A stretch of 12,845 bases of DNA from Gemmatimonadota bacterium (GCA_039589315.1 JBDHHQ010000120.1:1-12845); one strand, 5' to 3'; positions 1,020-12,845 are shown, counted from the stretch's first letter. Notes: generated by a model from the sequence alone, not told the origin. Program-made: numbers and translations.

Positions 1020-1922
1020 TCAGTTGAGGCCGATGCTGGCCTGGAAGAAGCGGGCCGCGCCGAAGTCGTTGGGCAGCCCCTCCCGCACGATTGCCAGCCC
1101 GTAACGGCCGACTTCCAGCCTCAGCTCCAGCAGAGAGGTCCAGGGACCGCCGTTATGGGAAAGGGCTGCCGCACCGGCAATGAAACGCCCCAGCCATGTT
1201 CCCCGAACTGACAGCCGATGTTCCGGATTGAAGTCGGAGACGGTCCCCTGAAGACCGTACCCGGCAGTGAGCTCGAGGCGGTCCGGCCAGGGCGTCGGGA
1301 CACTCGCCTGGGCTCCGAGGACCGCGTCCGTTCGGGTCCCCACGGAGCGCAGGGCCGCGCCGACACCGGGACGCAGCCTACCGCCGAAGCGGGACTGGAC
1401 GCCCAGGTCGACGGCGACCCTGTCCCGTCGGTCGGAGCCAACCGTGCCGCGCATGAGCCGGACCGAGGCGCCCACCCCGGCCAGGGACATGACGCTCTGG
1501 GCAAGGCTCAACACGGCCAGGTCTTCGGTGACCGTCAGGGATCCCGGCTCGGGCTCGGGTGAGCTGCCCGTGCGCTCGATGTCCGGGATGCCCAGGTGCT
1601 GATAGGCGACGCCCACCCGGCCCAGCCAGGGCAGGTCGAAGACCACCGAGCCCACCAGGCCCTGGATGCCCGAAGCGTCGGGACCGTCCACGTGGACGAT
1701 CCACACTTCCCGCTCCTCCTGGCTGGAGGGGGCGAATCCGGAGGGATTCCAGAGGAGGGAAGGGGCACCGGTCACGAGGGCCTCGGGTCGGACGTCCGAT
1801 CGCACGGGCCAGTCGAACAGGACCTGGCTGCGGAGGGAGGCCGGCGTCACCGCAGCCACCGCCAGCGTCGCCGCCAGAAGCAACGACGGGGGCCGAGCGG
1901 AAGGTGTGCCTCGTCCCCTCAC
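1020..1922 (-). CDS. Predicted outer-membrane beta-barrel protein, PorV/PorQ (FadL-like) family-like; start uncertain (GTG 1922 or TTG 1979)
   Basis: Signal-peptide-like N-terminus (R-rich, then LLLAATLAVAAVTPASLRSQ); 'LLWNPSGFA' resembles the WNPAGLA motif of PorV/FadL-like barrels; alternating amphipathic strands (GRVGVAYQHL, GVGASVRL, VAVDLGVQ, LELTAGY); C-terminal strand FFQASIGLN. The family call is by motif recognition only. Confidence 0.6.
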   Translation of the reverse strand: MRGRGTPSARPPSLLLAATLAVAAVTPASLRSQVLFDWPVRSDVRPEALVTGAPSLLWNPSGFAPSSQEEREVWIVHVDGPDASGIQGLVGSVVFDLPWLGRVGVAYQHLGIPDIERTGSSPEPEPGSLTVTEDLAVLSLAQSVMSLAGVGASVRLMRGTVGSDRRDRVAVDLGVQSRFGGRLRPGVGAALRSVGTRTDAVLGAQASVPTPWPDRLELTAGYGLQGTVSDFNPEHRLSVRGTWLGRFIAGAAALSHNGGPWTSLLELRLEVGRYGLAIVREGLPNDFGAARFFQASIGLN

Positions 1923-1993
1923 AGGGGAGTCCCGGCCCGCGCCCGCCCGTGGAAGGCCACCGACGCTACCATGACCCAACTGCCTCCATTCGC

Positions 1994-2022
1994 TTGAACC
2001 TCCAGAATGCGCCGGTTAAGTT
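1994..2022 (+). promoter_or_regulatory. Putative sigma70-type promoter for the vanZ-aspS operon
   Basis: TTGAAC (1994-1999), 17-nt spacer, TAAGTT (2017-2022), in an AT-enriched patch of the divergent intergenic region. Confidence 0.5.
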
Positions 2023-2046
2023 AGCCGCCGTTATGCCCGTCGGAAA
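2018..2046 (-). promoter_or_regulatory. Putative divergent promoter for the barrel-rlmN unit
   Basis: Minus strand TTTCCG (2046-2041), 17-nt spacer, TAACTT (2023-2018); the -35 match is weak. Confidence 0.3.
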
Positions 2047-2117
2047 ACCTATGATCGGCGGGCGACACCGGCTGAATCCGGAGGAGTCCGCGACGGACGG
2101 CCCGAACCGAACGAGAT

Positions 2118-2498
2118 GTGATCCGCGCTTTGATCGCATGGGGACCGGCGGCGACCTGGGCGACGGTCCTCTTTTTGTTGAGTGAGTTTCGAGGCTTCAC
2201 TCCGAACGTCTGGTTCGCCGTCCACGACAAGCTCGTCCATCTGCTACTGTACGGGGTTCTCGGCGCGACGCTGAGTTGGGCGAAGCGAATGAGCGACCGC
2301 TCGGTTCCGCATTGGGCGCTTCTGTCCCTGGGCCTCGCATACGGCGTGGTCGACGAGCTTCACCAACGCTTCGTGCCCAATCGGGTGTCTTCGGTCGACG
2401 ACCTGGTGGCCGACGCCATTGGCCTCGTGATCGGCTACGTCGTGATGCTGTTGGTGTGGAACGTCGTCGGCCGGTTCCGAACGCAGCCTTCCCGGTAG
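2118..2498 (+). CDS. VanZ family membrane protein
   Basis: Four hydrophobic segments with the family motifs W..VLFLLS, DKLVHLLLYGVLG, YGVVDELHQRFVPNR and DDLVADAIG. Confidence 0.9.
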   Translation: MIRALIAWGPAATWATVLFLLSEFRGFTPNVWFAVHDKLVHLLLYGVLGATLSWAKRMSDRSVPHWALLSLGLAYGVVDELHQRFVPNRVSSVDDLVADAIGLVIGYVVMLLVWNVVGRFRTQPSR

Positions 2499-2516
2499 AT
2501 TCCTCCTCACAAAGCG

Positions 2517-4310
2517 ATGACGCCAGTCAACAAGGATCAGACTTCGCAGCGCTCGTGCTCATTGGGCGGCCTCGACGCCTCCGGCGTCGGGGAGAGGCTG
2601 CGTGTGGTGGGATGGGTGCATCGGCGCCGGGACCTGGGTGGGCTGTTCTTCCTGGATCTCAGGGACCGCACGGGCCTCTTGCAGGTTTCTCTGGGTCCGG
2701 ACTGGACGAACGCCGACGGCATGGTCGCCGGCCGGACCCTCGGCAGCGAAGACGTGGTGGCCATCGAGGGTGAGCTGAGCCTGAGACCGGAGGATGCCCG
2801 GAACCCCGAGATGCCCACCGGCGACGTGGAGCTCAAGGCTGAGCGGGTCGAGCTGCTGAACAGCGCGGTCACGCCGGCGATCCCAGTATACCGGGCCCCC
2901 GACGAGGAGCTTCCCGCCGAGGAGCTGCGCCTCCGGCATCGGGTCCTGGACCTGCGCAGGCCGGAGCTGCAGGCCCGGCTCATCTTGCGGCACCGCCTGG
3001 TCCTGGAGGCCCGCAACTACCTGAGCGAGCAGGGCTTCACCGAGATCGAGACCCCGATCCTCACCAAGCCGACCCCGGAGGGCGCGCGGGACTACCTGGT
3101 GCCCAGCCGGGTCCACCCCGGTGAGTTCTACGCCCTGCCCCAGAGTCCTCAGATCTACAAGCAGATCCTGATGGCAGCGGGATTCGACCGCTATTTCCAG
3201 ATCGCCCGCTGCTTCAGGGACGAGGACCTGCGCGCGGACCGGCAACCCGAGTTCACACAGATCGACCTGGAGGCATCGTTCGTCGAGCCCGAAGACATCT
3301 ACAGGTGGATGGAGGGGCTCATGGAAAGGCTCGCGGTGGTCGCGGGGATCGAGGCGCCCACGCCCTTCCAGCGCCTCTCGTACGCTGGCGCGCTGAACCG
3401 TTTTGGCAGCGACCGCCCGGACCTTCGCTACGCCCTGGAGATAGCGGATTGGAGCGGTCCCCTTGGCGTGCTCGACTCGGGCATCCTCCGCTCGGCCCTC
3501 GAGGGCGGCGGACGGATTCGCGGGATGGTGCTGCCCGGAGGGGCCGGTCTTTCACGACGGGAGATCGAGGCCCTCGAGGCCGAGGCCAAATCGGCCGGTG
3601 CGCCGGGGCTCCTCTGGTTCAAGCGGACGGCTGACGGAGGGACCGGTCCCTTGAGCCGATTCATGACGCCAGAAGCGTACGAGGCCACCAGGGCCGTGGA
3701 GGGTGACCTGGTGGTGGTGGCCGCCGGAGAGGACGGCGTGACGTCTCCGGCGCTGGCCGCCACGCGAGGCGCGGCCATACGGGCCCTGGACCTCCCCGCC
3801 GAGCGTGAGCATGCATGGCTGTGGGTCACAGACTTCCCCTTGTTCGAGGTCGTCCCTGGGGCGGACCGCCTCACCGCCACCCACCATCCCTTCGTGCTAC
3901 CCCACGAGGACGACGAGCAGAAGCTGGGATCGGATCCACTGTCGGTGCGGGGCCATGCCTACGATCTGGTGTATGACGGGACTGAGTTGGGTTCCGGGAG
4001 TCTGCGTTGCCACGACCCGGAGCTACAGCGCCAGGTGCTCGCGGTGTTGGGGATGGACGACACCGAGATCGACCGGCGGTTCGGATTCCTGCTCCGGGCG
4101 CTGGGGTCCGGTGCGCCTCCCCACGGAGGGATCGCTCTGGGCATGGACCGGATCGTGAAGGAATTCAGCGGTGCTCAGAGCCTTCGGGACGTCATCGCAT
4201 TCCCGAAGACGACGGCGGCGCGCGCATTGTTCGAGGGGGCACCCGTTCCGGTGTCGTCGGAGGACCTGGCCGAGCTCAGGATCCGGGTGGAGTCCAGGGC
4301 GGACGACTAG
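2517..4310 (+). CDS. aspS: Aspartate--tRNA ligase (bacterial type with GAD insertion)
   Basis: OB-fold GWVHRRRDLGGLFFLDLRD; motif 1 region EIETPILTKPTPEGARDYLVPSR; LPQSPQ; motif 2 YFQIARCFRDEDLRADRQPEFTQID; HHPF; motif 3 GAPPHGGIALGMDR; DVIAFPK. Confidence 0.98.
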   Translation: MTPVNKDQTSQRSCSLGGLDASGVGERLRVVGWVHRRRDLGGLFFLDLRDRTGLLQVSLGPDWTNADGMVAGRTLGSEDVVAIEGELSLRPEDARNPEMPTGDVELKAERVELLNSAVTPAIPVYRAPDEELPAEELRLRHRVLDLRRPELQARLILRHRLVLEARNYLSEQGFTEIETPILTKPTPEGARDYLVPSRVHPGEFYALPQSPQIYKQILMAAGFDRYFQIARCFRDEDLRADRQPEFTQIDLEASFVEPEDIYRWMEGLMERLAVVAGIEAPTPFQRLSYAGALNRFGSDRPDLRYALEIADWSGPLGVLDSGILRSALEGGGRIRGMVLPGGAGLSRREIEALEAEAKSAGAPGLLWFKRTADGGTGPLSRFMTPEAYEATRAVEGDLVVVAAGEDGVTSPALAATRGAAIRALDLPAEREHAWLWVTDFPLFEVVPGADRLTATHHPFVLPHEDDEQKLGSDPLSVRGHAYDLVYDGTELGSGSLRCHDPELQRQVLAVLGMDDTEIDRRFGFLLRALGSGAPPHGGIALGMDRIVKEFSGAQSLRDVIAFPKTTAARALFEGAPVPVSSEDLAELRIRVESRADD

Positions 4311-4360
4311 AGCGCGCCAGGACGGTCGCGAACCCTTTTCGGCGAGAGGTACGCATACGA

Positions 4361-5356
4361 ATGGCGAACGGCGACAGCACCATGGTCGAGCACCGGCTCG
4401 ACGCCGAAGGGGCGGATCACCTTCTCCTGGCCGGCGTGAACGACGCCAACATGCAGGAGATCGCACGTCTGTTCGGCGTGCGGGTCGTCCTCCGCGGGGA
4501 CCATCTGATCCTCTCGGGAGAGTTGATCGCGGTGGAAAAAGCGGTGCCCGTCACGCATCACCTCATCGAGCTGGCTCGTCTGCGGGCACCATTCGACACC
4601 AACGACATCGCCCGGTTCGCGGAGGAGGCGGCCACGCTGGGTGAGGTCGGGCGCATACCGGCCGACGAGGCTCTCCGCATCGCTCTCCCGGGATCCAGCA
4701 AGGTCATCAGCCCGAAGTCCGATGGGCAGCGGCGCTACCTGGAGGCGATCTCCGAGTACGACATCGTCATCGGCATCGGTCCCGCGGGGACGGGCAAGAC
4801 CTACCTGGCGGTGGCTCGGGCCGTGGATGCTCTCTACAAGAAACGGGTGCGCCGGATCGTCCTGGCTCGGCCGGCCGTCGAGGCGGGCGAGAACCTGGGG
4901 TTCCTTCCGGGAGACCTCCAGGAGAAGGTCGATCCCTACCTGCGTCCCTTGTACGATGCTCTCGAGGACATGATGCCCCACGACCGCGTTCAGCGGGCCC
5001 TCGAGTCCCACACGATCGAGATCGCGCCGCTCGCCTACATGCGGGGGCGCACGCTCGCCGACGCCTTCGTGATCCTCGACGAGGCCCAGAACGCCACGAC
5101 GGCGCAGATGAAGATGTTCCTCACGCGCGTGGGGCTGAACTCCCAGGTCGTGATTACGGGCGACAAGACCCAGGTCGACCTGCCGCGTCGGGAGGACTCC
5201 GGGCTCCTGGAGGTCGAGCGGATCCTGACGGGCATCGACGGCATCGCGCTGGTGTATCTGGACGCCATGGACGTGATTCGGCACCGATTGGTCAAGGACA
5301 TCATCCGGGCCTACGCCCTGGCCGACGAGGAGTCCCTTCTGGAGTCGGACGGGTGA
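4361..5356 (+). CDS. phoH: PhoH-family ATPase (YbeZ-like)
   Basis: ATG 4361 preceded by GAGAGGT (4344-4350). Walker A GPAGTGKT, RPAVEAGENLGFLPGDL, EIAPLAYMRGRTL, DEAQN, TGD..QVDL, RHRLV. The track's start at 4007 overlaps aspS and is unlikely. Confidence 0.95.
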   Translation: MANGDSTMVEHRLDAEGADHLLLAGVNDANMQEIARLFGVRVVLRGDHLILSGELIAVEKAVPVTHHLIELARLRAPFDTNDIARFAEEAATLGEVGRIPADEALRIALPGSSKVISPKSDGQRRYLEAISEYDIVIGIGPAGTGKTYLAVARAVDALYKKRVRRIVLARPAVEAGENLGFLPGDLQEKVDPYLRPLYDALEDMMPHDRVQRALESHTIEIAPLAYMRGRTLADAFVILDEAQNATTAQMKMFLTRVGLNSQVVITGDKTQVDLPRREDSGLLEVERILTGIDGIALVYLDAMDVIRHRLVKDIIRAYALADEESLLESDG

Positions 5357-7800
5357 GCACCGGGAACGGGCGGAGCCGGGGACCCACGGTTCTCGACGGC
5401 CTCTCGACGAGACCCACCGGGGTCTGGCCGGATGCGGTGCTGCACCACGGAGCCCGCATAGCCTTGCTGCTGCTCGTTGCCGTAACCGTGACTGCCCTGT
5501 TCCCTCCGGTGACGAGCATCACGATGGTGGGGTACGAGCTCGGCACAGTGGTCGAGGAAGACCTCATTGCCGAGTTTCCCTTCGCCGTTCCCAAGTCCGC
5601 CGAGGAGCTGGCCCGGGAGCGGGCTGACGCAGCGGCGTCGGTTCCGCCCACCTTCGACTTCCGTCCGGACGCCGCCGATTCAATGGCGGTACGCCTCGAG
5701 CGCTTCTTCGCAGCCGTGGATTCGGCGGTCGGCCAGGGAGAGGCCGCCGCGTTGGAAGACTACCTGAGCCGCGTCCGTATCCGGACCCAGCCTGCCCAGC
5801 TCGCGCTGCTGGTCGAGCCGGACAGCCGCGCTCAGCTTCGGCGTGCCTCGCTACGGGCCGCCCAGGAGATCTTGCCCGGGGGCGTCATCGAGAGCGAATC
5901 CGACATCACCACCGACCGGGTGGCGGTACGCGTCGGCGATCAGGACCAGGGCTACATCGGCCTCGACCAGCTGATGACGCCGCGGGAGTTCCAGGCCGAG
6001 GCCGAAGCAGGCCTGGGATCGAGCCCCTCCAGCGACGCGACCGATCTTCTGCGGCTGATTCTGATCCGGTGGCAGGAATACAACTACACGCTGAACGTGG
6101 TGGCCACCGACGTGGACCGGAATCAGGCCCGCCAGGCCGTGGACACCACCCGCGAGAGCATCCTGGCCGGCGAGGCCATCGTCCGGGCGAACCAGCAGAT
6201 CCGCGCACCGGAGATCGAGCGCCTCACCGCCTACGAGCGGCAGCTCCAGACCCTCGGTCTGGTGGAGGAGGGCGTCTCGTTACTCCCGTTCGTCGGCTCC
6301 ACCCTGGTGGCAGTCCTGCTCCTGGGCCTCTTCGGCATGTTGCTGTTCTTCTACCGCCGCGAGGTCTACACCACTTTTGTCTGGCTCTTGCTGCTGGCTT
6401 CCCTCGTCACAGGGTACTTCCTCGTGGCTTGGGTCATCGACCTGAACCGGTTCGCACCCGAGTTGCTCCCCATCGCGTTCGTCGCCCTGGCCGTTGCGGT
6501 GCTGTGGGACGGGCGCATGGCGCTGGTTCTGGTCCTGCTCCTGGCGCTGCTCACCGGCACGTTGGAGGGCTTCGCGCAGCACGGGATCGTGCTGACGACG
6601 GCCACCGGTGGCTCCGCCGCCGCGCTGAGCGTGCGGGCAGTGCGCCGCCGGGCGCAGACCTGGGTCTTCGTCGCGATCATCGCCGCGGCGTATGCAGCCA
6701 TGGTCTTCGCGCTCGGTCTGGTCGAGAGTGCCTCCGCGAGCTCGGTGTTGACCGGAACCTTCTGGGGCGTGGCCAACGCCACCGCCTCCGCGATCCTGGC
6801 CATGGGCTTCCTGCCCGTGTTCGAGTGGGTCACGGGGATCACCACCGACCAGACACTGCTGGAGTGGGCGGATCCGAATCGGTCCCTCCTGAAGCGGCTG
6901 GCCATGGAGGCGCCGGGGACCCACAGCCACTCGATTCAGGTGGCCAACCTGGCCGAGGCCGGAGCCGCCGCGATCGAGGCCAACGGGCTCCTCTGCAGAG
7001 TGGGAGCCTACTATCACGACGTCGGGAAGGTCCTGAAGCCCCAATACTTCATCGAGAACCAGCCCGAGGGCCGGAATCCCCACGACAAGCTCAAGCCGTC
7101 CACATCGGCGCAGGTCGTCCGGGAGCACGTCACCGAGGGCCTGCGTCTGGCGCGGGACGCGAAGGTCCCGAAGGCCATCGCTGACTTCATCTCGCAGCAC
7201 CACGGCACCCAACGCATCGCGTACTTCTACCAGAAGGCGGTGGAGGAAGCCGGGGAGGGTAGCGTCGATCCGGCTCCCTTCACGTATCCGGGCCCGCGTC
7301 CTCAGTCGCGGGAGACGGCGATCTGCATGTTCGCCGACTCCGTGGAGTCCGCCACGCGCGTCCTGCAGGACGCCACGCCGCAGAGGATCAGGGGGCTCGT
7401 GCACAGCCTGGTGGAGTCCAAGATCCGGGACGGTCAACTCGACGACGCCGACCTCACGCTCCGGGAGGTGGCGGTCCTCGAGGATCAGTTCGTGAAGATG
7501 GTGAGCGGCATGTACCACCACCGCATCGACTATCCTACGACCCGCCACTTGACGGAATCGCCCGACGTCTCGGCCGGTGAGGAGGGGGAAGAAGGGCCCC
7601 CCGAGGAGGCGGCTTCGGCGTCCTCGGGCTCCGATCCTGCCACGTCGGGCGGAGCTGAAGCCGGAGCACCTGAAGGCTCCCCGGCCCTGGGCCCGGACGG
7701 CGCGGGGGCGCCCGTCCGCACCGAAGCCCCCGCCTCGGAGGCCCCCGCGGACGACACCGGGGAGGAAGAAGCCCCCCAGCTCCCCGGCCTGGGCACCTGA
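5353..7800 (+). CDS. 7TM-HD (HDIG) membrane metal-dependent phosphohydrolase, PgpH/YqfF-like putative cyclic-di-AMP phosphodiesterase
   Basis: N-terminal TM, large extracytoplasmic domain (GEAIVRANQ), about seven TM helices, then an HD domain: APGTHSHS, AYYHDVGK, YFIENQ...NPHD, HVTEG, QHHGT, YPGPRPQ, ADSVES, HHRIDYP. The GTG start overlaps the phoH stop (GTGA), and the gene sits in the known phoH-pgpH-ybeY context. Confidence 0.9.
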   Translation: MSTGNGRSRGPTVLDGLSTRPTGVWPDAVLHHGARIALLLLVAVTVTALFPPVTSITMVGYELGTVVEEDLIAEFPFAVPKSAEELARERADAAASVPPTFDFRPDAADSMAVRLERFFAAVDSAVGQGEAAALEDYLSRVRIRTQPAQLALLVEPDSRAQLRRASLRAAQEILPGGVIESESDITTDRVAVRVGDQDQGYIGLDQLMTPREFQAEAEAGLGSSPSSDATDLLRLILIRWQEYNYTLNVVATDVDRNQARQAVDTTRESILAGEAIVRANQQIRAPEIERLTAYERQLQTLGLVEEGVSLLPFVGSTLVAVLLLGLFGMLLFFYRREVYTTFVWLLLLASLVTGYFLVAWVIDLNRFAPELLPIAFVALAVAVLWDGRMALVLVLLLALLTGTLEGFAQHGIVLTTATGGSAAALSVRAVRRRAQTWVFVAIIAAAYAAMVFALGLVESASASSVLTGTFWGVANATASAILAMGFLPVFEWVTGITTDQTLLEWADPNRSLLKRLAMEAPGTHSHSIQVANLAEAGAAAIEANGLLCRVGAYYHDVGKVLKPQYFIENQPEGRNPHDKLKPSTSAQVVREHVTEGLRLARDAKVPKAIADFISQHHGTQRIAYFYQKAVEEAGEGSVDPAPFTYPGPRPQSRETAICMFADSVESATRVLQDATPQRIRGLVHSLVESKIRDGQLDDADLTLREVAVLEDQFVKMVSGMYHHRIDYPTTRHLTESPDVSAGEEGEEGPPEEAASASSGSDPATSGGAEAGAPEGSPALGPDGAGAPVRTEAPASEAPADDTGEEEAPQLPGLGT

Positions 7801-7824
7801 GCCCGGCACCTGCCGATAGCCCCC

Positions 7825-9654
7825 GTGCTTACCGTCCACGTAAATTGCAGGGGCCGATCCGAGATCGACACCGACCTGCTGGAGTCGGCCGTGCGGCTCG
7901 TTCTCCACGCCGAGGGCGTGGAACGAGGCGAGGTTTCCGTCACGCTCCTGGGGGACGACCCCATCCGGGAGATGAACCGCGACTACCTCGGGCACGACCG
8001 GCCCACCGACGTCATCGCGTTCGCCCTGCACGGCGAGGGCGAGCCGGTACTGGGTGACGTGTACGTGGGCGTTGAGCAGGCCGAGCGGCAGGCGGTGCGA
8101 GAGGGCGTGCCGGCTCGGGATGAGCTTGCGCGTCTGGCCATCCACGGCACGCTGCACGTGCTGGGATACGACCATCCGGACGGCGAGGGCAGAAGCGCAA
8201 GCCCCATGTTCGAGCGCCAGGAGCGGCTCATGGCCGAGCTGCTGGGCGATCGCACGGGCGGGTCCCCAGAAGAAACACCGGACGGGAGAAAGTCCTTGAA
8301 CGGGTCGGGCACACCGGAAGAGACGTTGATCGCCGAGCTGCGCCAATTGATCGAGTCCGGAGAGAGCGAGAGGCTCCAGGAGATCCTCGCGGGGATGCAC
8401 CCGAGCGACGTCGCCGACCTGGTGGAGTCGATCGACGACAGCGCCAGGCGGGTGGCCTTCATACGCGCGCTCCCCTCCGAGCTCGCCTCCGAAACCCTGA
8501 GCGAGATGGAGGAGGGCGAGCAGCCGGCCGAGCTCCTGGCGGCCCTGGGACCCGTAGAAGGCGCGGCCCTGGTCCACGAGCTCGACGATGACGACGCGGC
8601 AGACCTCATCGCCGATCTGGAGCCCGCGGACAGGGACCGGATCCTGGCGGAGCTCCCGGAGGACGAGGCCGAGGACATCGAAGGTCTCCTCCAGTACGAC
8701 GAGGAGACCGCCGGTGGCCTGATGACCACTGCCCTGGTGTCCGTTCCCGAACGCATGACGGCCGCGGAGGCGATCGCCGAAGTGCGGAAGCAGGGCCGTG
8801 AGGTGGAGGACTTCTACACCGTGTTCGTCGTGGACGACCGCGGTCGCCTCCAGGGCACGGTGCCGCTGGACGACCTCATCCTGGCCGATCCCCACGAACC
8901 GGTGGCGAGCCTGGTGCAGCCCGTCGTGACCTCGGTGCTCCCGGAGTTGGACCAGGAGGAGGTGGGCCGCCTCCTCGGTCGCTACAACCTGGTGAGCGTC
9001 CCCGTGGTCAACGAGTTCGGGACTCTCTTGGGGCGCATCACCTTCGACGACGTCATCGACGTGATCGAGGCGGAGCAGACCGAGGACATCCTGCGCTTGG
9101 CCGGTGGCTCGGAGGACGAAGAGGTGCGGGCCCGCTGGACTGACGCCGTGCGAGAGCGCCTGCCCTGGCTGCTGATCAATCTGCTTCCGGCTACCCTGGC
9201 CGCCGCGGTCGTCTATGCCTTCGACCAGACGATCGAGAACGTGGTGATCCTGGCCGCCGTCATGCCCATCATCGCCGCGACCGGAGGGAACGCGGGCACG
9301 CAGGCCCTGGCCGTCACGATTCGGCGTATCTCGCTGGCCGGCGGGCGGGCGGAGCGGGGATCGCCAGTGTCCAAGGAGATCAAGGTAGGCCTGGCGAATG
9401 GAGCGGCCATCGGCGCCACGGTGGCAGTGCTCGCGGCCGTGGTCCCAGGCGGTAACCCCGTCCTTGGCCTGGTGGTGCTCATCGCCATGTGGGGGACGGT
9501 GTTGATGGGGGGGTTCACCGGCGCCTTTGTGCCCACGGTGTTGAACCGCGCCGGCATAGACCCGGCCGTGGCATCCGCGGTGTTTGTCACCACCCTTACC
9601 GACATGTTCGGGTTCTTCCTGCTCCTGGGCCTCGCCTCCATGTTGCTTCTATGA
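7825..9654 (+). CDS. ybeY-mgtE: In-frame fusion: rRNA maturation factor YbeY (about 7825-8250), linker, magnesium transporter MgtE (about 8296-9654)
   Basis: YbeY part: MNRDYLGHDRPTDVIAF, LGDVYV, Zn-binding HGTLHVLGYDH (8143-8175), MFERQERL. MgtE part: HPSDVADL N-domain, YDEETAGGLMT, tandem CBS domains, GRITFDDVID, RLPWLLINL, GGNAGTQ, GIDPAVAS, TTLTD (pore Asp). There is no stop codon between the two parts. Confidence 0.9.
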   Translation: MLTVHVNCRGRSEIDTDLLESAVRLVLHAEGVERGEVSVTLLGDDPIREMNRDYLGHDRPTDVIAFALHGEGEPVLGDVYVGVEQAERQAVREGVPARDELARLAIHGTLHVLGYDHPDGEGRSASPMFERQERLMAELLGDRTGGSPEETPDGRKSLNGSGTPEETLIAELRQLIESGESERLQEILAGMHPSDVADLVESIDDSARRVAFIRALPSELASETLSEMEEGEQPAELLAALGPVEGAALVHELDDDDAADLIADLEPADRDRILAELPEDEAEDIEGLLQYDEETAGGLMTTALVSVPERMTAAEAIAEVRKQGREVEDFYTVFVVDDRGRLQGTVPLDDLILADPHEPVASLVQPVVTSVLPELDQEEVGRLLGRYNLVSVPVVNEFGTLLGRITFDDVIDVIEAEQTEDILRLAGGSEDEEVRARWTDAVRERLPWLLINLLPATLAAAVVYAFDQTIENVVILAAVMPIIAATGGNAGTQALAVTIRRISLAGGRAERGSPVSKEIKVGLANGAAIGATVAVLAAVVPGGNPVLGLVVLIAMWGTVLMGGFTGAFVPTVLNRAGIDPAVASAVFVTTLTDMFGFFLLLGLASMLLL

Positions 9655-9752
9655 ACCCAGAGCCCGGGAACGCCGCGGGGCCGCGACTCCTCCCGGGCCG
9701 CCCGGACGTGGAGGTGGTGGGGGAGCGGGCCAGGGGACGGCGGCACCGATGA
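9651..9752 (+). CDS. Possible 33-aa small ORF bridging mgtE and the UbiB kinase
   Basis: ATG 9651 overlaps the mgtE TGA (ATGA), and its own TGA (9750-9752) overlaps the kinase ATG (9749). It encodes MNPEPGNAAGPRLLPGRPDVEVVGERARGRRHR; no homology recognised. Confidence 0.3.
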   Translation: MNPEPGNAAGPRLLPGRPDVEVVGERARGRRHR

Positions 9753-11407
9753 AGCGGGTCATCCGCAGCACCTCCGTCCTCGTCCGCCTCGTGCCGTACA
9801 TCTGGGCGTTCCTGCGCGACCGGAAGCGGTGGATCATCCTGGGCCAGCCGGCCCGACGTAATGAAGCGCACCACGAGCGCCGCGCCGAGCGCCTCACGCG
9901 CACGATTGCACACCTGGGTCCCACGTTCATCAAGTTGGCCCAGCTCTTCTCGTCCCGGGCCGACCTGCTCGTCGAGCCGTACCTCTCGGCCATCGGCACG
10001 CTCCAGGACCAGGTCCCTCCGGATCCCGTGGAGCGAATCCGCTCCGTGGTGGAGGCAGAGTACGAGAAGCCCATCGGGGAAGTGTTCGACGAATTCGAGC
10101 CCGAGCCCCTGGCCGCGGCGAGCCTGGGTCAGGTTCATCGAGCGGTCGTGGGAGGGCGCGAGGCGGTGGTCAAGGTGCTGCGGCCCGGTGTGGAGGGGGT
10201 CGTGGCCCTCGACCTGGATATCTCGTTCCGCGTTCTGTTCTGGCTCAACCTCCTGTTCAGGAACCACCACGTGCAGGGGCTCACGAACGTGGTGCGGGAG
10301 TTCAGCGTGAGGGTCCGCGAGGAGATGGATTTCACCAAAGAGGCCGAGAACATCCACCACTTCCAGGAGAAGTTCCGCACCGACCGGAAGGTCAGGGCCC
10401 CCTACGTCTTCCCGGAGTACACGCGGCGCCGCGTCCTCGTCATGGAGTACTGCCGCGGCACGAAGATCGATCGTCTCCAGGACAGGTTCCGGTCTGGTAG
10501 GCTGCGGTTCGAGGACGTGATGGAGACCATCACCGGCCTCTACCTGCGCATGATGATGGTGGACGGCTTCCTTCACGCCGATCCCCATCCCGGTAACCTC
10601 CTGGTCCAGGACGACGGCACCATCGTCGTGCTGGACTGGGGCATGGTCATCCAGGTGCCGCGGTGGACCCGGGAAGACATCCTGGCCATCGCGCTGGCCG
10701 TGGAGCGGGAGAACCTCGACGGGGTCATCAACGGCATGTACCACCTGGGGATGATCAACCCCGACGTGTCCCGGGGCGAGATCCGTGAGGCGGCAACGGA
10801 GATCCTGCACATCCTCGAGCGGGTGACGGGCGGCGGGCGAGAACGGATTCAGGAGATCGTCCAGGAGATCTTCGACACCTTCTATACGTGGCCCCTGATG
10901 CTCCCCCAGGAGCTGGTGTACTTCTTCCGCACCACGGCCCTGCTCGAGGGAATCGGGTTCCGCTATCGGCCCGACTTCGACGGACTGGGCCTCGTCCGGC
11001 GGGTCATCCGGAGCTACCGCGGCGAGATCCTCCGGACCACGGCTCGGCAACCCGCCGCGGTGGCCAAGGACGTCCTCACGGAGGTCAACAGCGTCGTCCG
11101 CTCCGTCAGGGACCTCCTGCACCGGGCCGAGCGGGAAGAGCTGCGCGTGCGGATCCATCCCCGTGACCTGGGTCACCTGGAACGGAACATCCACCTCCAG
11201 GCCCGGCGGTTGCTCCTGAGCATCTTCGCTACAGCCACAGCCGTAATCACCTCGGTGCTGTTCATATCGCTCCGCAGCTGGTGGCTCCTGGCCGGAGGAC
11301 TCGTGATCTCGCTGTTCATGTTCGTCCTGATCCTCTTTTTGCCTACGCACCTGCTGGAGAACCCGCTGAGGCACGCGAGGGGAATTCGGCCGGGAGACCG
11401 GTTCTAG
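9749..11407 (+). CDS. ABC1/AarF/UbiB-family atypical protein kinase-like protein with two C-terminal TM helices
   Basis: LGPTFIKLAQ (KxGQ position), LQDQVPP, PLAAASLGQVHRA, VVKVLRPG, EEMDF..EA, VLVMEY, HADPHPGN, LDWGM and a hydrophobic C-terminal hairpin. ATG 9749 is preferred over the track's 9584, which overlaps mgtE. Confidence 0.93.
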   Translation: MKRVIRSTSVLVRLVPYIWAFLRDRKRWIILGQPARRNEAHHERRAERLTRTIAHLGPTFIKLAQLFSSRADLLVEPYLSAIGTLQDQVPPDPVERIRSVVEAEYEKPIGEVFDEFEPEPLAAASLGQVHRAVVGGREAVVKVLRPGVEGVVALDLDISFRVLFWLNLLFRNHHVQGLTNVVREFSVRVREEMDFTKEAENIHHFQEKFRTDRKVRAPYVFPEYTRRRVLVMEYCRGTKIDRLQDRFRSGRLRFEDVMETITGLYLRMMMVDGFLHADPHPGNLLVQDDGTIVVLDWGMVIQVPRWTREDILAIALAVERENLDGVINGMYHLGMINPDVSRGEIREAATEILHILERVTGGGRERIQEIVQEIFDTFYTWPLMLPQELVYFFRTTALLEGIGFRYRPDFDGLGLVRRVIRSYRGEILRTTARQPAAVAKDVLTEVNSVVRSVRDLLHRAEREELRVRIHPRDLGHLERNIHLQARRLLLSIFATATAVITSVLFISLRSWWLLAGGLVISLFMFVLILFLPTHLLENPLRHARGIRPGDRF

Positions 11408-11521
11408 TGGCCGGTGGACGACACGTCGGCAGAAGGGGCGGAGGCACGGCGCCCACGATGCGCCTCGAGCGGCTCGGCCAGCCGGTCGCGACCCATCGCA
11501 TTCGTGTCAGAGGACGGTAGC

Positions 11522-12634
11522 ATGGCCACGGAGGACCTCACCACGGCAGTGGCCAGGCTGGTGGAGCGCTTCCAGGGTGGTCAACGGCCGGCCCTCGCCC
11601 GCGCGATCACGGTCGTGGAGAACCAGCGCACGGGCTTCCAGGAGCTGCTGCACGGGGTCGTGGGTGGCGGCCTCCAGGCGCGCCGCATCGGCTTCACCGG
11701 ACCACCGGGTGCCGGCAAGTCGAGCTTGATCTCGACCCTGGCAGCCCGGTACCGGGCGCAGGCAGAGGAGGTGGCGGTGGTGGCGGTCGATCCCACGTCG
11801 CCCTACTCGGGGGGCGCGCTTCTGGGCGACCGCATCCGGATGAACGACCTGGCGACGGATCCGGGCATCTTCATCACGACCGGCGAGGTCATCGATCTGA
11901 TGGACGCCTTCGGGTTCCCACGGGTGCTGGTCGAGACGGTGGGTGTGGGGCAGACCGAGCTCGAGATCACGGGAGCGGCCGACACCGTTGTAGTGGTCCT
12001 CGTGCCCGAGTCGGGCGACGCCATTCAGGCCATGAAGGCCGGGCTGATGGAGATTGCCGACATCTTCGTCGTGAACAAGGCCGACCGGCCGGGCGCGGAC
12101 CGGCTGGTCAAAGAGATCAGCCTGGCCATTCACCTCAGGGCGGGGGAGGCCCTGAAGGACATCCCCGCGCACCATGGGGTGGCCCTGAAGCCGGTGGGGG
12201 CTGCGTCCGGCGAGGGGCTGGCCGGGGCGGACACCCGCGCCGGACATGAGCCCGCTGTGGAGCCTGGCGCGAAGACGTCCCGCCGTTGGGAGCGTCACCG
12301 CCCCGAGGCCGGCGAGTGGAAGATCCCCGTGCTCAAGACGGTGGCCCAGACGGGCGCGGGGGTGGACGGCTTGGCCACGGCCATCGAGGAGCACCGGACG
12401 TACCTGGAGGCCAGCGGCGAGCTCGAGCATCGCCGTCGGGAGCGGGCTGCGGGCAGGGTCCGGGACGTGGCCGAGCGGGAGCTCTCGCGCATCGTGTGGG
12501 GCTCGGTCGAGACGTCGGAGTTGCTGGCCCAAGGGGTGGAGGCCGTGGCCCGGGGCGCCGAGACGCCGTACACCGTGGCCCGGCGGATCGTCGAGCGGCA
12601 CCTGGGGCGAGTGGATACGGCGCTGCCGGAGTGA
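11522..12634 (+). CDS. meaB: MeaB/ArgK (MMAA) G3E GTPase, methylmalonyl-CoA mutase chaperone; lacks a conserved internal segment and may be impaired
   Basis: ALARAITVVEN, P-loop IGFTGPPGAGKSS, AVDPTSPYSGGALLGDRIRM, ETVGVGQ, PESGDAIQAMKAGLMEIADIFVVNKAD, TPY near the C-terminus. ATG 11522 has GAGG upstream. Confidence 0.93.
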   Translation: MATEDLTTAVARLVERFQGGQRPALARAITVVENQRTGFQELLHGVVGGGLQARRIGFTGPPGAGKSSLISTLAARYRAQAEEVAVVAVDPTSPYSGGALLGDRIRMNDLATDPGIFITTGEVIDLMDAFGFPRVLVETVGVGQTELEITGAADTVVVVLVPESGDAIQAMKAGLMEIADIFVVNKADRPGADRLVKEISLAIHLRAGEALKDIPAHHGVALKPVGAASGEGLAGADTRAGHEPAVEPGAKTSRRWERHRPEAGEWKIPVLKTVAQTGAGVDGLATAIEEHRTYLEASGELEHRRRERAAGRVRDVAERELSRIVWGSVETSELLAQGVEAVARGAETPYTVARRIVERHLGRVDTALPE

Positions 12635-12775
12635 CGCTGTGCCGGTCTCCACGCCTGACCCGAGCGCTTCTGGATCAGCAGCGGGGACGGCTCGTCCGGC
12701 TTCCGCCGCCTTGGATCGGTGAGGATCGACCCACCCATTCGGCGTGCGGCGTGTGATTCGCTCCCAGGTGATTCG

Positions 12776-12804
12776 TTGACCCGTTCCGAATGCCCGATGA
12801 TCTT
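12776..12804 (+). promoter_or_regulatory. Possible sigma70-type promoter for the next downstream gene
   Basis: TTGACC (12776-12781), 17-nt spacer, GATCTT (12799-12804); the -10 is imperfect. Confidence 0.25.
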
Positions 12805-12845
12805 TGAAGAGGCCGACAATGGACCGACTACGGACCTGCAGGGGA

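What the first reader, a model, noticed from the sequence alone, without database searches (positions are those of the whole stretch)
7825..9654. YbeY rRNA-maturation factor fused in one reading frame to a full MgtE Mg2+ channel
Seen: a continuous 609-aa ORF with a complete YbeY (intact HxxxHxxxxxH Zn site), a G/S/P/E/T-rich linker (GGSPEETPDGRKSLNGSGTPEET, with PEET twice) and a complete MgtE (N-domain, 2 CBS, TM domain with the pore Asp). Established: YbeY is normally a small stand-alone protein for 16S rRNA 3' maturation. In E. coli it lies in ybeZ-ybeY-ybeX(corC), next to a different CBS-domain Mg2+-homeostasis gene, and the MgtE cytosolic domains act as a Mg2+-sensing gate. Inference: if real, this Rosetta-stone fusion tethers a ribosome-maturation factor to a dimeric membrane Mg2+ sensor and could couple ribosome biogenesis to Mg2+ status. 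I do not recall this architecture being described but cannot search for it.
Basis: partly seen in the sequence, partly recalled or inferred. Interest (0 to 1): 0.78.

Follow-up and report, generated by a model that had tools for sequence, protein, structure and literature searches.

The report
YbeY–MgtE fusion keeping an internal start
In one small group of uncultured Gemmatimonadota bacteria, the gene for a ribosome-assembly enzyme (YbeY) has merged with the neighbouring magnesium-channel gene (MgtE), so the enzyme is probably made hanging from the membrane channel; the merger is real and inherited, but nothing yet shows that magnesium controls the enzyme.

Summary
Window 7825-9654 encodes YbeY + MgtE_N + 2 CBS + MgtE in one frame, the only ybeY and mgtE found in this genome. 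It is not an assembly error: six protein clusters (73-90% identical) plus one partial protein are fused. Their MgtE halves form one clade (100/100; 44). Neighbouring lineages keep adjacent, separate genes (73 of 75 distinct loci; 89). Both domains are under purifying selection. The junction keeps the old mgtE start: GGAG, TTG/GTG at 8296, and an overlapping out-of-frame TGA (62, 65, 66). Best reading: a stop/start overlap was lost, giving a gene that makes tethered YbeY–MgtE and probably free MgtE too, each doing its usual job. A 2026 preprint recasts YbeY as a uS11 isoaspartylase; the target Asn-Gly is present. Mg2+ control of YbeY is unsupported: the linker is short and predicted disordered, and YbeY also fuses to unrelated neighbours. 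I found no paper on this architecture. The scan had not noted YbeY–MgtE before, but had noted other YbeY fusions (Lnt, PdxJ, RbgA).

The parts
7825..9654 (+). ybeY-mgtE fused ORF, 609 aa (P0001); GTG start with no SD-like sequence, 24 nt after the stop of the 7TM-HD gene
   Evidence: anti-SD duplex at this start -1.5 kcal/mol
7825..8256 (+). YbeY domain (aa 1-144): Zn triad H107/H111/H117, T61 (= E. coli T65), D78 (= D85); the E. coli R59 position is Leu here, as in 54 of 59 unfused relatives
8257..8295 (+). new tether (aa 145-157), the former ybeY tail; A-rich; AlphaFold pLDDT below 50 at 146-159
8285..8288 (+). GGAG Shine-Dalgarno-like motif, 7 nt before the internal TTG; inside an 11-nt block identical in G001
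8296..8298 (+). in-frame TTG (codon 158; GTG in G001) at the ancestral mgtE start position, 34 residues before the HPSD motif
8297..8299 (+). TGA in the +1 frame overlapping the internal start (TTGA; GTGA in G001): likely relic of a ybeY-stop/mgtE-start overlap
   Evidence: 11 of 59 unfused loci have this NTGA overlap
8296..9114 (+). MgtE cytosolic region: N-terminal extension, N domain, CBS pair, plug helix; Mg-site acids kept except D226 (Asn here); Thermus ATP-binding residues not kept
9115..9654 (+). MgtE transmembrane domain with pore D593; carries clade-specific changes such as P455 and T558
2517..4310 (+). aspS (context)
4361..5356 (+). phoH/ybeZ (context)
5353..7800 (+). 7TM-HD phosphohydrolase (context; such a gene lies directly upstream in 104 of 129 distinct ybeY loci)
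9749..11407 (+). ABC1/UbiB-like kinase (context)
11522..12634 (+). meaB GTPase (context), with a 13-codon in-frame gap

Best explanation
This is a real, inherited fusion of two operon neighbours that still carries the second gene's start. SHOWN: one frame; both domains intact and under purifying selection; one MgtE clade; sole copies in the genome; SD, start codon and overlapping out-of-frame stop at the ancestral mgtE start. INFERRED: the ancestor had ybeY's TGA overlapping mgtE's start codon (NTGA), and a frame-changing indel in the ybeY tail put ybeY in frame with mgtE. INFERRED: ribosomes starting at the weak GTG 7825 make YbeY-MgtE, while ribosomes starting at TTG 8296 make ordinary MgtE, so channels are mostly MgtE or mixed dimers. 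The cell's only YbeY then hangs in the cytoplasm on a ~15-residue flexible tether from MgtE's N domain. There it does its usual job (zinc-dependent uS11 Asn-to-isoAsp conversion in 30S platform assembly, per the 2026 preprint), while MgtE imports Mg2+ and closes when Mg2+ binds its cytosolic sites. The two activities are co-located, not coupled.
For: Fusion in G000, G001 and P0003-P0006, partial in P0297. MgtE clade 100/100. Sole ybeY in G000 and G001, sole over-cut-off mgtE in G000. dN/dS 0.23 for YbeY, 0.06 for MgtE core. YbeY/MgtE dN ratio 1.73, inside the 0.68-3.22 range of 22 unfused pairs, which share members. uS11 tail reads PHNGC and Era is present. Internal start: 83 of 114 stand-alone MgtEs begin 35 residues before HxSD, and the TTG is 34 before it. 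P0297 reads from YbeY straight into VTEPGAP, the called start of 452-aa P0030. TTG and GTG differ in amino acid yet both are start codons. A start codon with GGAG occurs at 0.31% of 1,164,288 interior codons, and with NTGA at 0.058%. The 30 nt before codon 158 are the most A-rich in the ORF, and local folding ranks 12th weakest of 589 positions. The ybeY start has no SD. Tether disordered, both domains confident. Other YbeY fusions to unrelated neighbours.
Against: No expression data. Keeping the start signal between the window and L140 is not remarkable by itself: 3 of 7 other interior start-codon+GGAG sites are kept too. The SD duplex (-7.4 kcal/mol) is not among the 12 strongest of the ORF's 57 in-frame start-type codons, and the G001 site folds more strongly (-14.9 vs -9.3). 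P0005 and P0006 have no V/L/M at the ancestral start position, so two products cannot be general. DNA was seen for only two species-level fused loci (G000, and G001/L140, whose proteins match P0002). The background rates were chosen after seeing the site. Codon usage does not favour the +1 frame as the old ybeY tail. The YbeY trees do not recover the clade, although they do not reject it (AU p=0.374).
Confidence: 0.55

Rival explanations
1. Obligate single product: the internal start is a silent relic, every MgtE subunit carries a YbeY, and the tether is passive.
For: P0005 and P0006 lack a start-capable residue at the ancestral position and have tethers 5-8 residues shorter. Signal retention between the two DNA-level loci is within background. 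The SD is only moderate.
Against: The start position, SD-compatible residues and tether length are kept across P0001, P0002, P0003 and P0297, whose tether sequences have diverged strongly. In P0297 the [GRW][RS] pair at -4/-3 has a 2.7% background. The ybeY start lacks an SD, which would limit channel supply.
Confidence: 0.27
2. Functional coupling: the Mg2+-dependent packing of MgtE's N domain gates YbeY's access to uS11 or pre-30S, tying small-subunit assembly to Mg2+ status.
For: The N domain is mobile without Mg2+ and packs on binding (PMC5882242, passages), and YbeY is attached to it. ybeY neighbours a Mg2+-homeostasis gene in E. coli and Salmonella too (corC). The fusion is retained in 6 of 7 full-length clade members, and the clade has a long MgtE stem branch (0.30) with changes at otherwise near-invariant positions.
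Against: The tether is unconserved and disordered. No fusion-specific conserved surface appears in YbeY: the only diagnostic column is T3. The MgtE changes are shared with the 452-aa P0030. In E. coli, YbeX and YbeY act through distinct pathways (preprint 10.64898/2026.07.10.737703, section 13). YbeY also fuses to partners unrelated to Mg2+.
Confidence: 0.12
3. YbeY is released: a +1 ribosomal frameshift in the tail runs into the overlapping TGA, or the disordered tether is cut, so free YbeY is the working form.
For: The +1 frame is open through the tail and ends at the TGA at 8297-8299 in both genomes. The tether is predicted disordered.
Against: By inspection, no slippery sequence is shared by the two junctions. 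Open off-frames are common at 68% GC. The TGA is explained by start codon plus A.
Confidence: 0.05
4. Assembly or sequencing artefact that removed a stop codon.
For: No reads could be checked. The same contig has a meaB gene with a 13-codon gap found in none of 30 relative loci. P0003-P0006 and P0297 rest on one or two contigs each.
Against: Seven distinct sequences at 62-90% identity, from several assembly sources, have the same architecture with similar junction lengths.
Confidence: 0.01

Closest known systems
YbeY-Era fusion proteins (some Clostridia, Selenomonadales, Thermoleophilum; PMC10582724 section 15; P0015/P0016)
   Same: YbeY is joined N-terminally to a protein whose gene often sits near ybeY, giving a natural two-function polypeptide in a restricted lineage.
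   Different: Era is a soluble, known physical partner of YbeY in the same process. MgtE is a membrane channel with no reported link to YbeY in the papers searched.
Thermus thermophilus MgtE (PDB 2yvx/2zy9/5x9h)
   Same: Same domain order and fold (E 1.1e-67 by sequence; Foldseek TM 0.88 on the target). Pore Asp and the Mg4, Mg6 and Mg7 acids are kept.
   Different: Extra N-terminal YbeY. The ATP-site residues R187, F227, Y170 and N203 are replaced (D349, L389, T332, Q365), D226 is Asn and gate N424 is Ala/Ser. These are mostly shared with unfused relatives. TM proline P455 is clade-specific.
Stand-alone YbeY (E. coli 1xm5, Aquifex 1oz9), reported as uS11 isoaspartylase (preprint 10.64898/2026.08.26.747345)
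   Same: Fold, His triad, T65 and D85 equivalents kept; substrate Asn-Gly present in this genome's uS11.
   Different: C-terminally fused to a membrane protein. The R59, R44 and T42 positions are Leu, Thr and Ser, as in most unfused relatives of this lineage.
E. coli / Salmonella ybeZ-ybeY-ybeX(corC)-lnt operon (PMC12421838; preprint 10.1101/2023.03.20.533420)
   Same: phoH/ybeZ and ybeY are followed by a CBS-domain Mg2+-homeostasis gene.
   Different: CorC is an unrelated, separate protein tied to excess-Mg2+ tolerance. Here the neighbour is an MgtE uptake channel, a 7TM-HD gene lies between phoH and ybeY, and the genes are fused.

Membership tests
YbeY (TIGR00043 / PF02130) | Family score above the curated cut-off | tested here: met
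   108.4 bits vs 45; 100.5 vs 25
YbeY (TIGR00043 / PF02130) | HGxxHxxGxDH zinc triad | tested here: met
   H107/H111/H117 in 6 of 6 fused proteins and in P0297
YbeY (TIGR00043 / PF02130) | uS11-contact and catalytic-cleft residues named for E. coli (T42, R44, R59, T65, D85) | tested here: inconclusive
   T65 and D85 kept; T42->S, R44->T, R59->L. The same residues occur in 59, 39 and 54 of 59 unfused relatives, so this is lineage variation whose effect is unknown
YbeY (TIGR00043 / PF02130) | Asn-Gly at the uS11 kink in the same genome | tested here: met
   uS11 tail PHNGCRPP
YbeY (TIGR00043 / PF02130) | Isoaspartylase activity / 30S maturation | not testable with these tools
   needs PIMT labelling or complementation
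MgtE (TIGR00400) | Family score and N-CBS-CBS-plug-5TM order | tested here: met
   297 bits vs 232.75; domain order and helices; Foldseek to 2zy9 E 3e-27
MgtE (TIGR00400) | Pore Asp (D432, Mg1) | tested here: met
   D593 in 7 of 7 clade members and 78 of 78 relatives
MgtE (TIGR00400) | Cytosolic Mg2+ sensor acids E59, D91/D247, D95, D226/D250 | tested here: inconclusive
   E223, D256, D409, D260 and D412 kept; D226 is N388, as in 75 of 78 relatives; sites from PMC5882242 passages
ATP-modulated MgtE (Thermus type) | R187, F227, Y170, N203 ATP contacts | tested here: not met
   D349, L389, T332, Q365; only D188 kept (D350)
MgtE (TIGR00400) | Mg2+ conduction and Mg2+-dependent closure | not testable with these tools
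   needs complementation of a Mg2+-auxotroph or patch clamp
Rosetta-stone fusion marking interacting partners | Repeated independent fusion of the same pair in distant lineages | tested here: not met
   One clade only. No other fused match in 313 family genomes, a 400-genome phylum sample, or the 150 best 50%-identity representatives
Rosetta-stone fusion marking interacting partners | Physical or functional interaction of the separate proteins | not testable with these tools
   needs pull-down or two-hybrid tests with an unfused pair

The most novel reading that the evidence does not exclude
The fusion hangs the cell's only uS11 isoaspartylase from the moving N domain of its Mg2+ channel. The channel's Mg2+-sensing conformation would then switch a universally conserved ribosomal-protein modification on or off, while an internal start sets what fraction of channels carry the enzyme. 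That would be a direct, post-translational link from Mg2+ status to 30S assembly.
Probability: 0.12. Interest if true: 0.75.

Novelty: new variant of a known kind. Interest (0 to 1): 0.38.

Why it matters
Even on the plain reading, this is a natural experiment. It implies YbeY can work while anchored to the inner membrane, which bears on where and when uS11 is modified (free protein versus nascent 30S). It also gives a ready construct for asking whether Mg2+ transport and 30S assembly, whose genes are neighbours in unrelated phyla, are ever directly coupled. It is also a candidate two-start gene. Where a source names the full-length fusion at all, it calls it only 'magnesium transporter', so ybeY can be missed in such genomes. 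Interest is limited because both parts are well known, the clade is small and uncultured, and YbeY fuses readily with neighbours.

Tried and rejected
(1) The first MgtE tree is invalid: a frame-selection bug put 17 of 70 rows, including G001, in the wrong frame. It was rebuilt; 23 of 84 loci were left out as duplicates, truncated or failing the motif filter. (2) The idea that the tether still shows +1-frame codon usage failed: frame 0 scores best in both genomes. (3) The test that start-signal conservation exceeds background failed to discriminate (4 of 8 sites kept, junction included; ABC1 was skipped for a frame slip and aspS only partly aligned). (4) Sequencing runs: none was listed; this is no evidence either way. 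(5) Complex prediction of YbeY with the MgtE cytosolic region returned no verdict (score 0.00, controls not folded); this is no evidence for or against binding. (6) The first AlphaFold model on 6 sequences was poor (pLDDT 52) and was replaced. (7) Long open frames upstream of ybeY in L061, L065, L043 and L090 have no similarity to the HD protein; no HD-YbeY fusion was found in 129 distinct ybeY loci (one search returned an empty count from a script fault). (8) Ten long or N-extended MgtE hits carry no YbeY. (9) No sigma-70-like promoter and no excess of terminators in 2000-12845. (10) 16S rRNA is not assembled in G000 or G001, so a standard anti-SD was used, which matches G228 and G010. (11) The YbeY review (Liao et al. 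2021) is not held and may list fusions I could not see. (12) The 'PEET twice' repeat is not conserved in P0003-P0006 and was dropped as a feature.

Full report
OBSERVATION. Window 7825-9654 (+) is one 609-codon frame. It carries Pfam YbeY (18-139), MgtE_N (191-294), two CBS stretches and MgtE TM (480-603), and passes both the ybeY and mgtE equivalog cut-offs. It lies in the run aspS-phoH-7TM/HD-[ybeY-mgtE]-ABC1 kinase-meaB. Named relatives are Gemmatimonadota, Longimicrobiales. tblastn and family searches of the 95%-complete genome find no other ybeY and no other over-cut-off mgtE; a partial CorA hit exists elsewhere. G001 also has one ybeY, the fused one.

IS IT REAL? Yes. G001 (same genus) has the uninterrupted frame at 90% identity. 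A search with residues 1-200 returned 16 proteins, of which 6 clusters have all four domains; they are 73-90% identical to P0001 overall. These clusters hold 18 members from JGI, NCBI, ENA and Logan; one member is a C-terminal fragment and one starts later. A search of longer proteins with the YbeY part added P0297: YbeY plus MgtE_N, then an out-of-frame-looking tail. Its contig has the same length (2948) as that of P0144, a C-terminal MgtE half. I infer these are two halves of one fused gene broken further downstream. No sequencing run was listed.

HOW WIDESPREAD? Narrow. Of 61 relatives, 60 match, and only G000 and G001 match end to end without a stop (this tally includes unpublished G037 and G056, on which nothing else here rests). 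Of 314 family genomes, 138 match residues 1-260 at E<=1e-40. Only those two span the junction without a stop, 12 others span it with one or two stops, and 176 had no match at that threshold. In a 401-genome phylum sample, 8 match at E<=1e-48 and only G000 lacks a stop. Among 75 distinct loci with ybeY upstream of mgtE, 2 are fused and 73 separate, 63 of them directly adjacent. Among the best 150 of 44,620 hits in the 50%-identity library, only P0002 covers both domains. Nine long or N-extended hits from that list, plus P0048, have no YbeY.

ORIGIN. In the corrected MgtE trees, the six fusions and the 452-aa P0030 form one clade (SH-aLRT 100 in 85 rows; 100/100 in 21 rows) on a long stem. P0030 nests inside weakly (89/79), and a fusion-only clade is not rejected (AU p=0.154). 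P0297's MgtE part is 88% identical to P0030, and P0144 is 98% identical, so P0030's own lineage contains a fusion. One origin is the simplest reading, with the 452-aa calls being reversions or gene calls at the internal start; two origins are not excluded. YbeY trees are unresolved (AU p=0.374). In both DNA-level junctions a TGA in the +1 frame overlaps the old mgtE start (TTGA, GTGA), and 11 of 59 unfused loci have just this stop/start overlap. I infer that a frame-changing indel in the ybeY tail made the fusion. A codon-usage test did not confirm this.

THE JUNCTION. GGAG (8285-8288) lies 7 nt before an in-frame TTG (8296-8298); G001 has the same 11 bases and GTG. This codon is 34 residues before the HPSD motif, and 83 of 114 stand-alone relatives start 35 before it. 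P0297 runs from YbeY into VTEPGAP, exactly where P0030 is called to start. A start codon with GGAG at this spacing occurs at 0.31% of interior codons in 2,511 filtered ORFs, and with NTGA at 0.058%. Twelve A's in the 30 nt upstream occurs at 0.086%. These criteria were chosen after seeing the site. The ybeY GTG has no SD (-1.5 vs -7.4 kcal/mol). Against a working start: the SD is not among the 12 strongest of 57 in-frame candidates; 3 of 7 other such interior sites are also kept between the window and L140; and P0005 and P0006 have no V/L/M there. So the site is certainly the old start; whether it is used is inference (about 2:1 in favour).

ARE THE PARTS ALIVE? Between G000 and G001, dN/dS is 0.23 for YbeY, 0.26 for residues 141-190 and 0.06 for the MgtE core. 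The YbeY/MgtE dN ratio (1.73) lies within that of 22 non-independent unfused pairs (0.68-3.22), so there is no sign of decay or new constraint. YbeY keeps the His triad and the T65 and D85 equivalents. R59, R44 and T42 are Leu, Thr and Ser, as in most unfused relatives (E. coli numbering read by eye from the HMMER alignment). The preprint 10.64898/2026.08.26.747345 (abstract and sections 5, 6, 12, 15 read; supplements not seen) reports that YbeY converts uS11 Asn119 to isoaspartate, with uS11 binding its beta-sheet face. This genome's uS11 has PHNGC, and Era is present. MgtE keeps pore D593 and most sensor acids but not the Thermus ATP contacts, like its unfused relatives (sites from passages of PMC5882242 and PMC5529423; mapped by eye with a 23-residue tag offset that I inferred). 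The clade has its own TM changes, such as P455 (Thr in 77 of 78 outside) and T558 (Asn in 76 of 78). AlphaFold on 150 sequences gives mean pLDDT 94, with only 146-159 below 50. Foldseek matches MgtE 2zy9 and YbeY 1oz9, 7y7o and 1xm5.

HOW IT MOST LIKELY WORKS. The operon yields YbeY-MgtE from a weak start and, probably, plain MgtE from the internal start (0.55). The alternative is the fusion alone (0.27). Either way the only YbeY is tethered on the cytoplasmic side of a dimeric Mg2+ channel (dimer and N-domain location from PMC5882242 passages) and modifies uS11 there, independently of gating. Coupling (0.12) is mechanically conceivable because the N domain moves with Mg2+. But the tether is unconserved, YbeY shows no fusion-specific surface, and E. 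coli YbeX and YbeY act by distinct routes (10.64898/2026.07.10.737703, abstract and section 13). YbeY is also a permissive fusion partner. One search shows it joined to a pyridine-nucleotide oxidoreductase (P0007, P0009, P0012, P0013), behind the 7TM-HD protein (P0008, P0011; P0010 and P0014 look frameshifted) and before Era (P0015, P0016). E. coli YbeY has been used as N- and C-terminal two-hybrid fusions (PMC5101352, passages).

WHAT IS KNOWN. YbeY-Era fusions are described (PMC10582724, passages and section 15). The ybeZ-ybeY-corC-lnt operon and a Mg2+-rescued ribosome phenotype of ybeX are described (PMC12421838 and 10.1101/2023.03.20.533420, passages). I found no YbeY-MgtE fusion in print. 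The search ybeY+mgtE gave 8 papers; I saw only the listing of 6, and none concerns it by title or abstract start. YbeY+Gemmatimonadota gave 0, a four-term membrane-fusion search gave 0, and searches listed nothing on it. A GTDB-wide MgtE classification preprint has no mention of YbeY in its main text (10.1101/2025.05.26.656215, passages). The main YbeY review is not held, subscription papers are not searched, and preprint supplements were not seen. Earlier notes of this scan hold no YbeY-MgtE case. They do report YbeY-Lnt, YbeY-PdxJ with an internal start, and RbgA-YbeY; I did not check these.

VERDICT. A real, apparently undescribed, clade-restricted domain fusion of two well-known neighbours, with a retained internal start. 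It is a new variant of a known kind; interest 0.38.

Noticed in passing
window 11858-11890 (meaB): MeaB lacks 13 codons (the RSMATRGSLGGLA stretch) present in all 30 relative loci that matched the search motif, including L140; either a real in-frame deletion or an assembly slip.
   Followed up: partly
P0007, P0009, P0012, P0013, P0299: A separate multi-member fusion of YbeY to a pyridine nucleotide-disulphide oxidoreductase (605-607 aa), seen in four clusters from Logan, NCBI, ENA and JGI.
   Followed up: partly
P0008, P0029, P0011: 7TM-HD phosphohydrolase fused to a C-terminal YbeY (873-896 aa; one named Longimicrobiaceae): a second route to membrane-anchored YbeY in a related lineage. No DNA seen; not found among 129 ybeY loci.
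   Followed up: partly
window 9115-9654: The fused clade's MgtE has a proline in the first TM helix (P455) and other changes (T486, T558, G562, T565, F595) at positions where the 78 relatives mostly or almost always have other residues; channel properties may differ.
   Followed up: partly
window 7825-8244: Synonymous divergence from G001 is lower in ybeY (dS 0.28) than in mgtE (0.63), a gap not seen in most unfused pairs; unexplained.
   Followed up: no
window 1020-1979 (-): 319-aa ORF with no Pfam hit and only a weak PorV/PorQ-family match (E 8e-4, far below cut-off).
   Followed up: no
L142 (G000:C82:18414-18659): Partial CorA-family match near a contig end; a second possible Mg2+ transporter.
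   Followed up: no
L025, L028, L030, L079 and L112, L117, L124: In 8 of 59 unfused loci a gap of 0.5-2.5 kb, large enough for other genes, lies between ybeY and mgtE.
   Followed up: no
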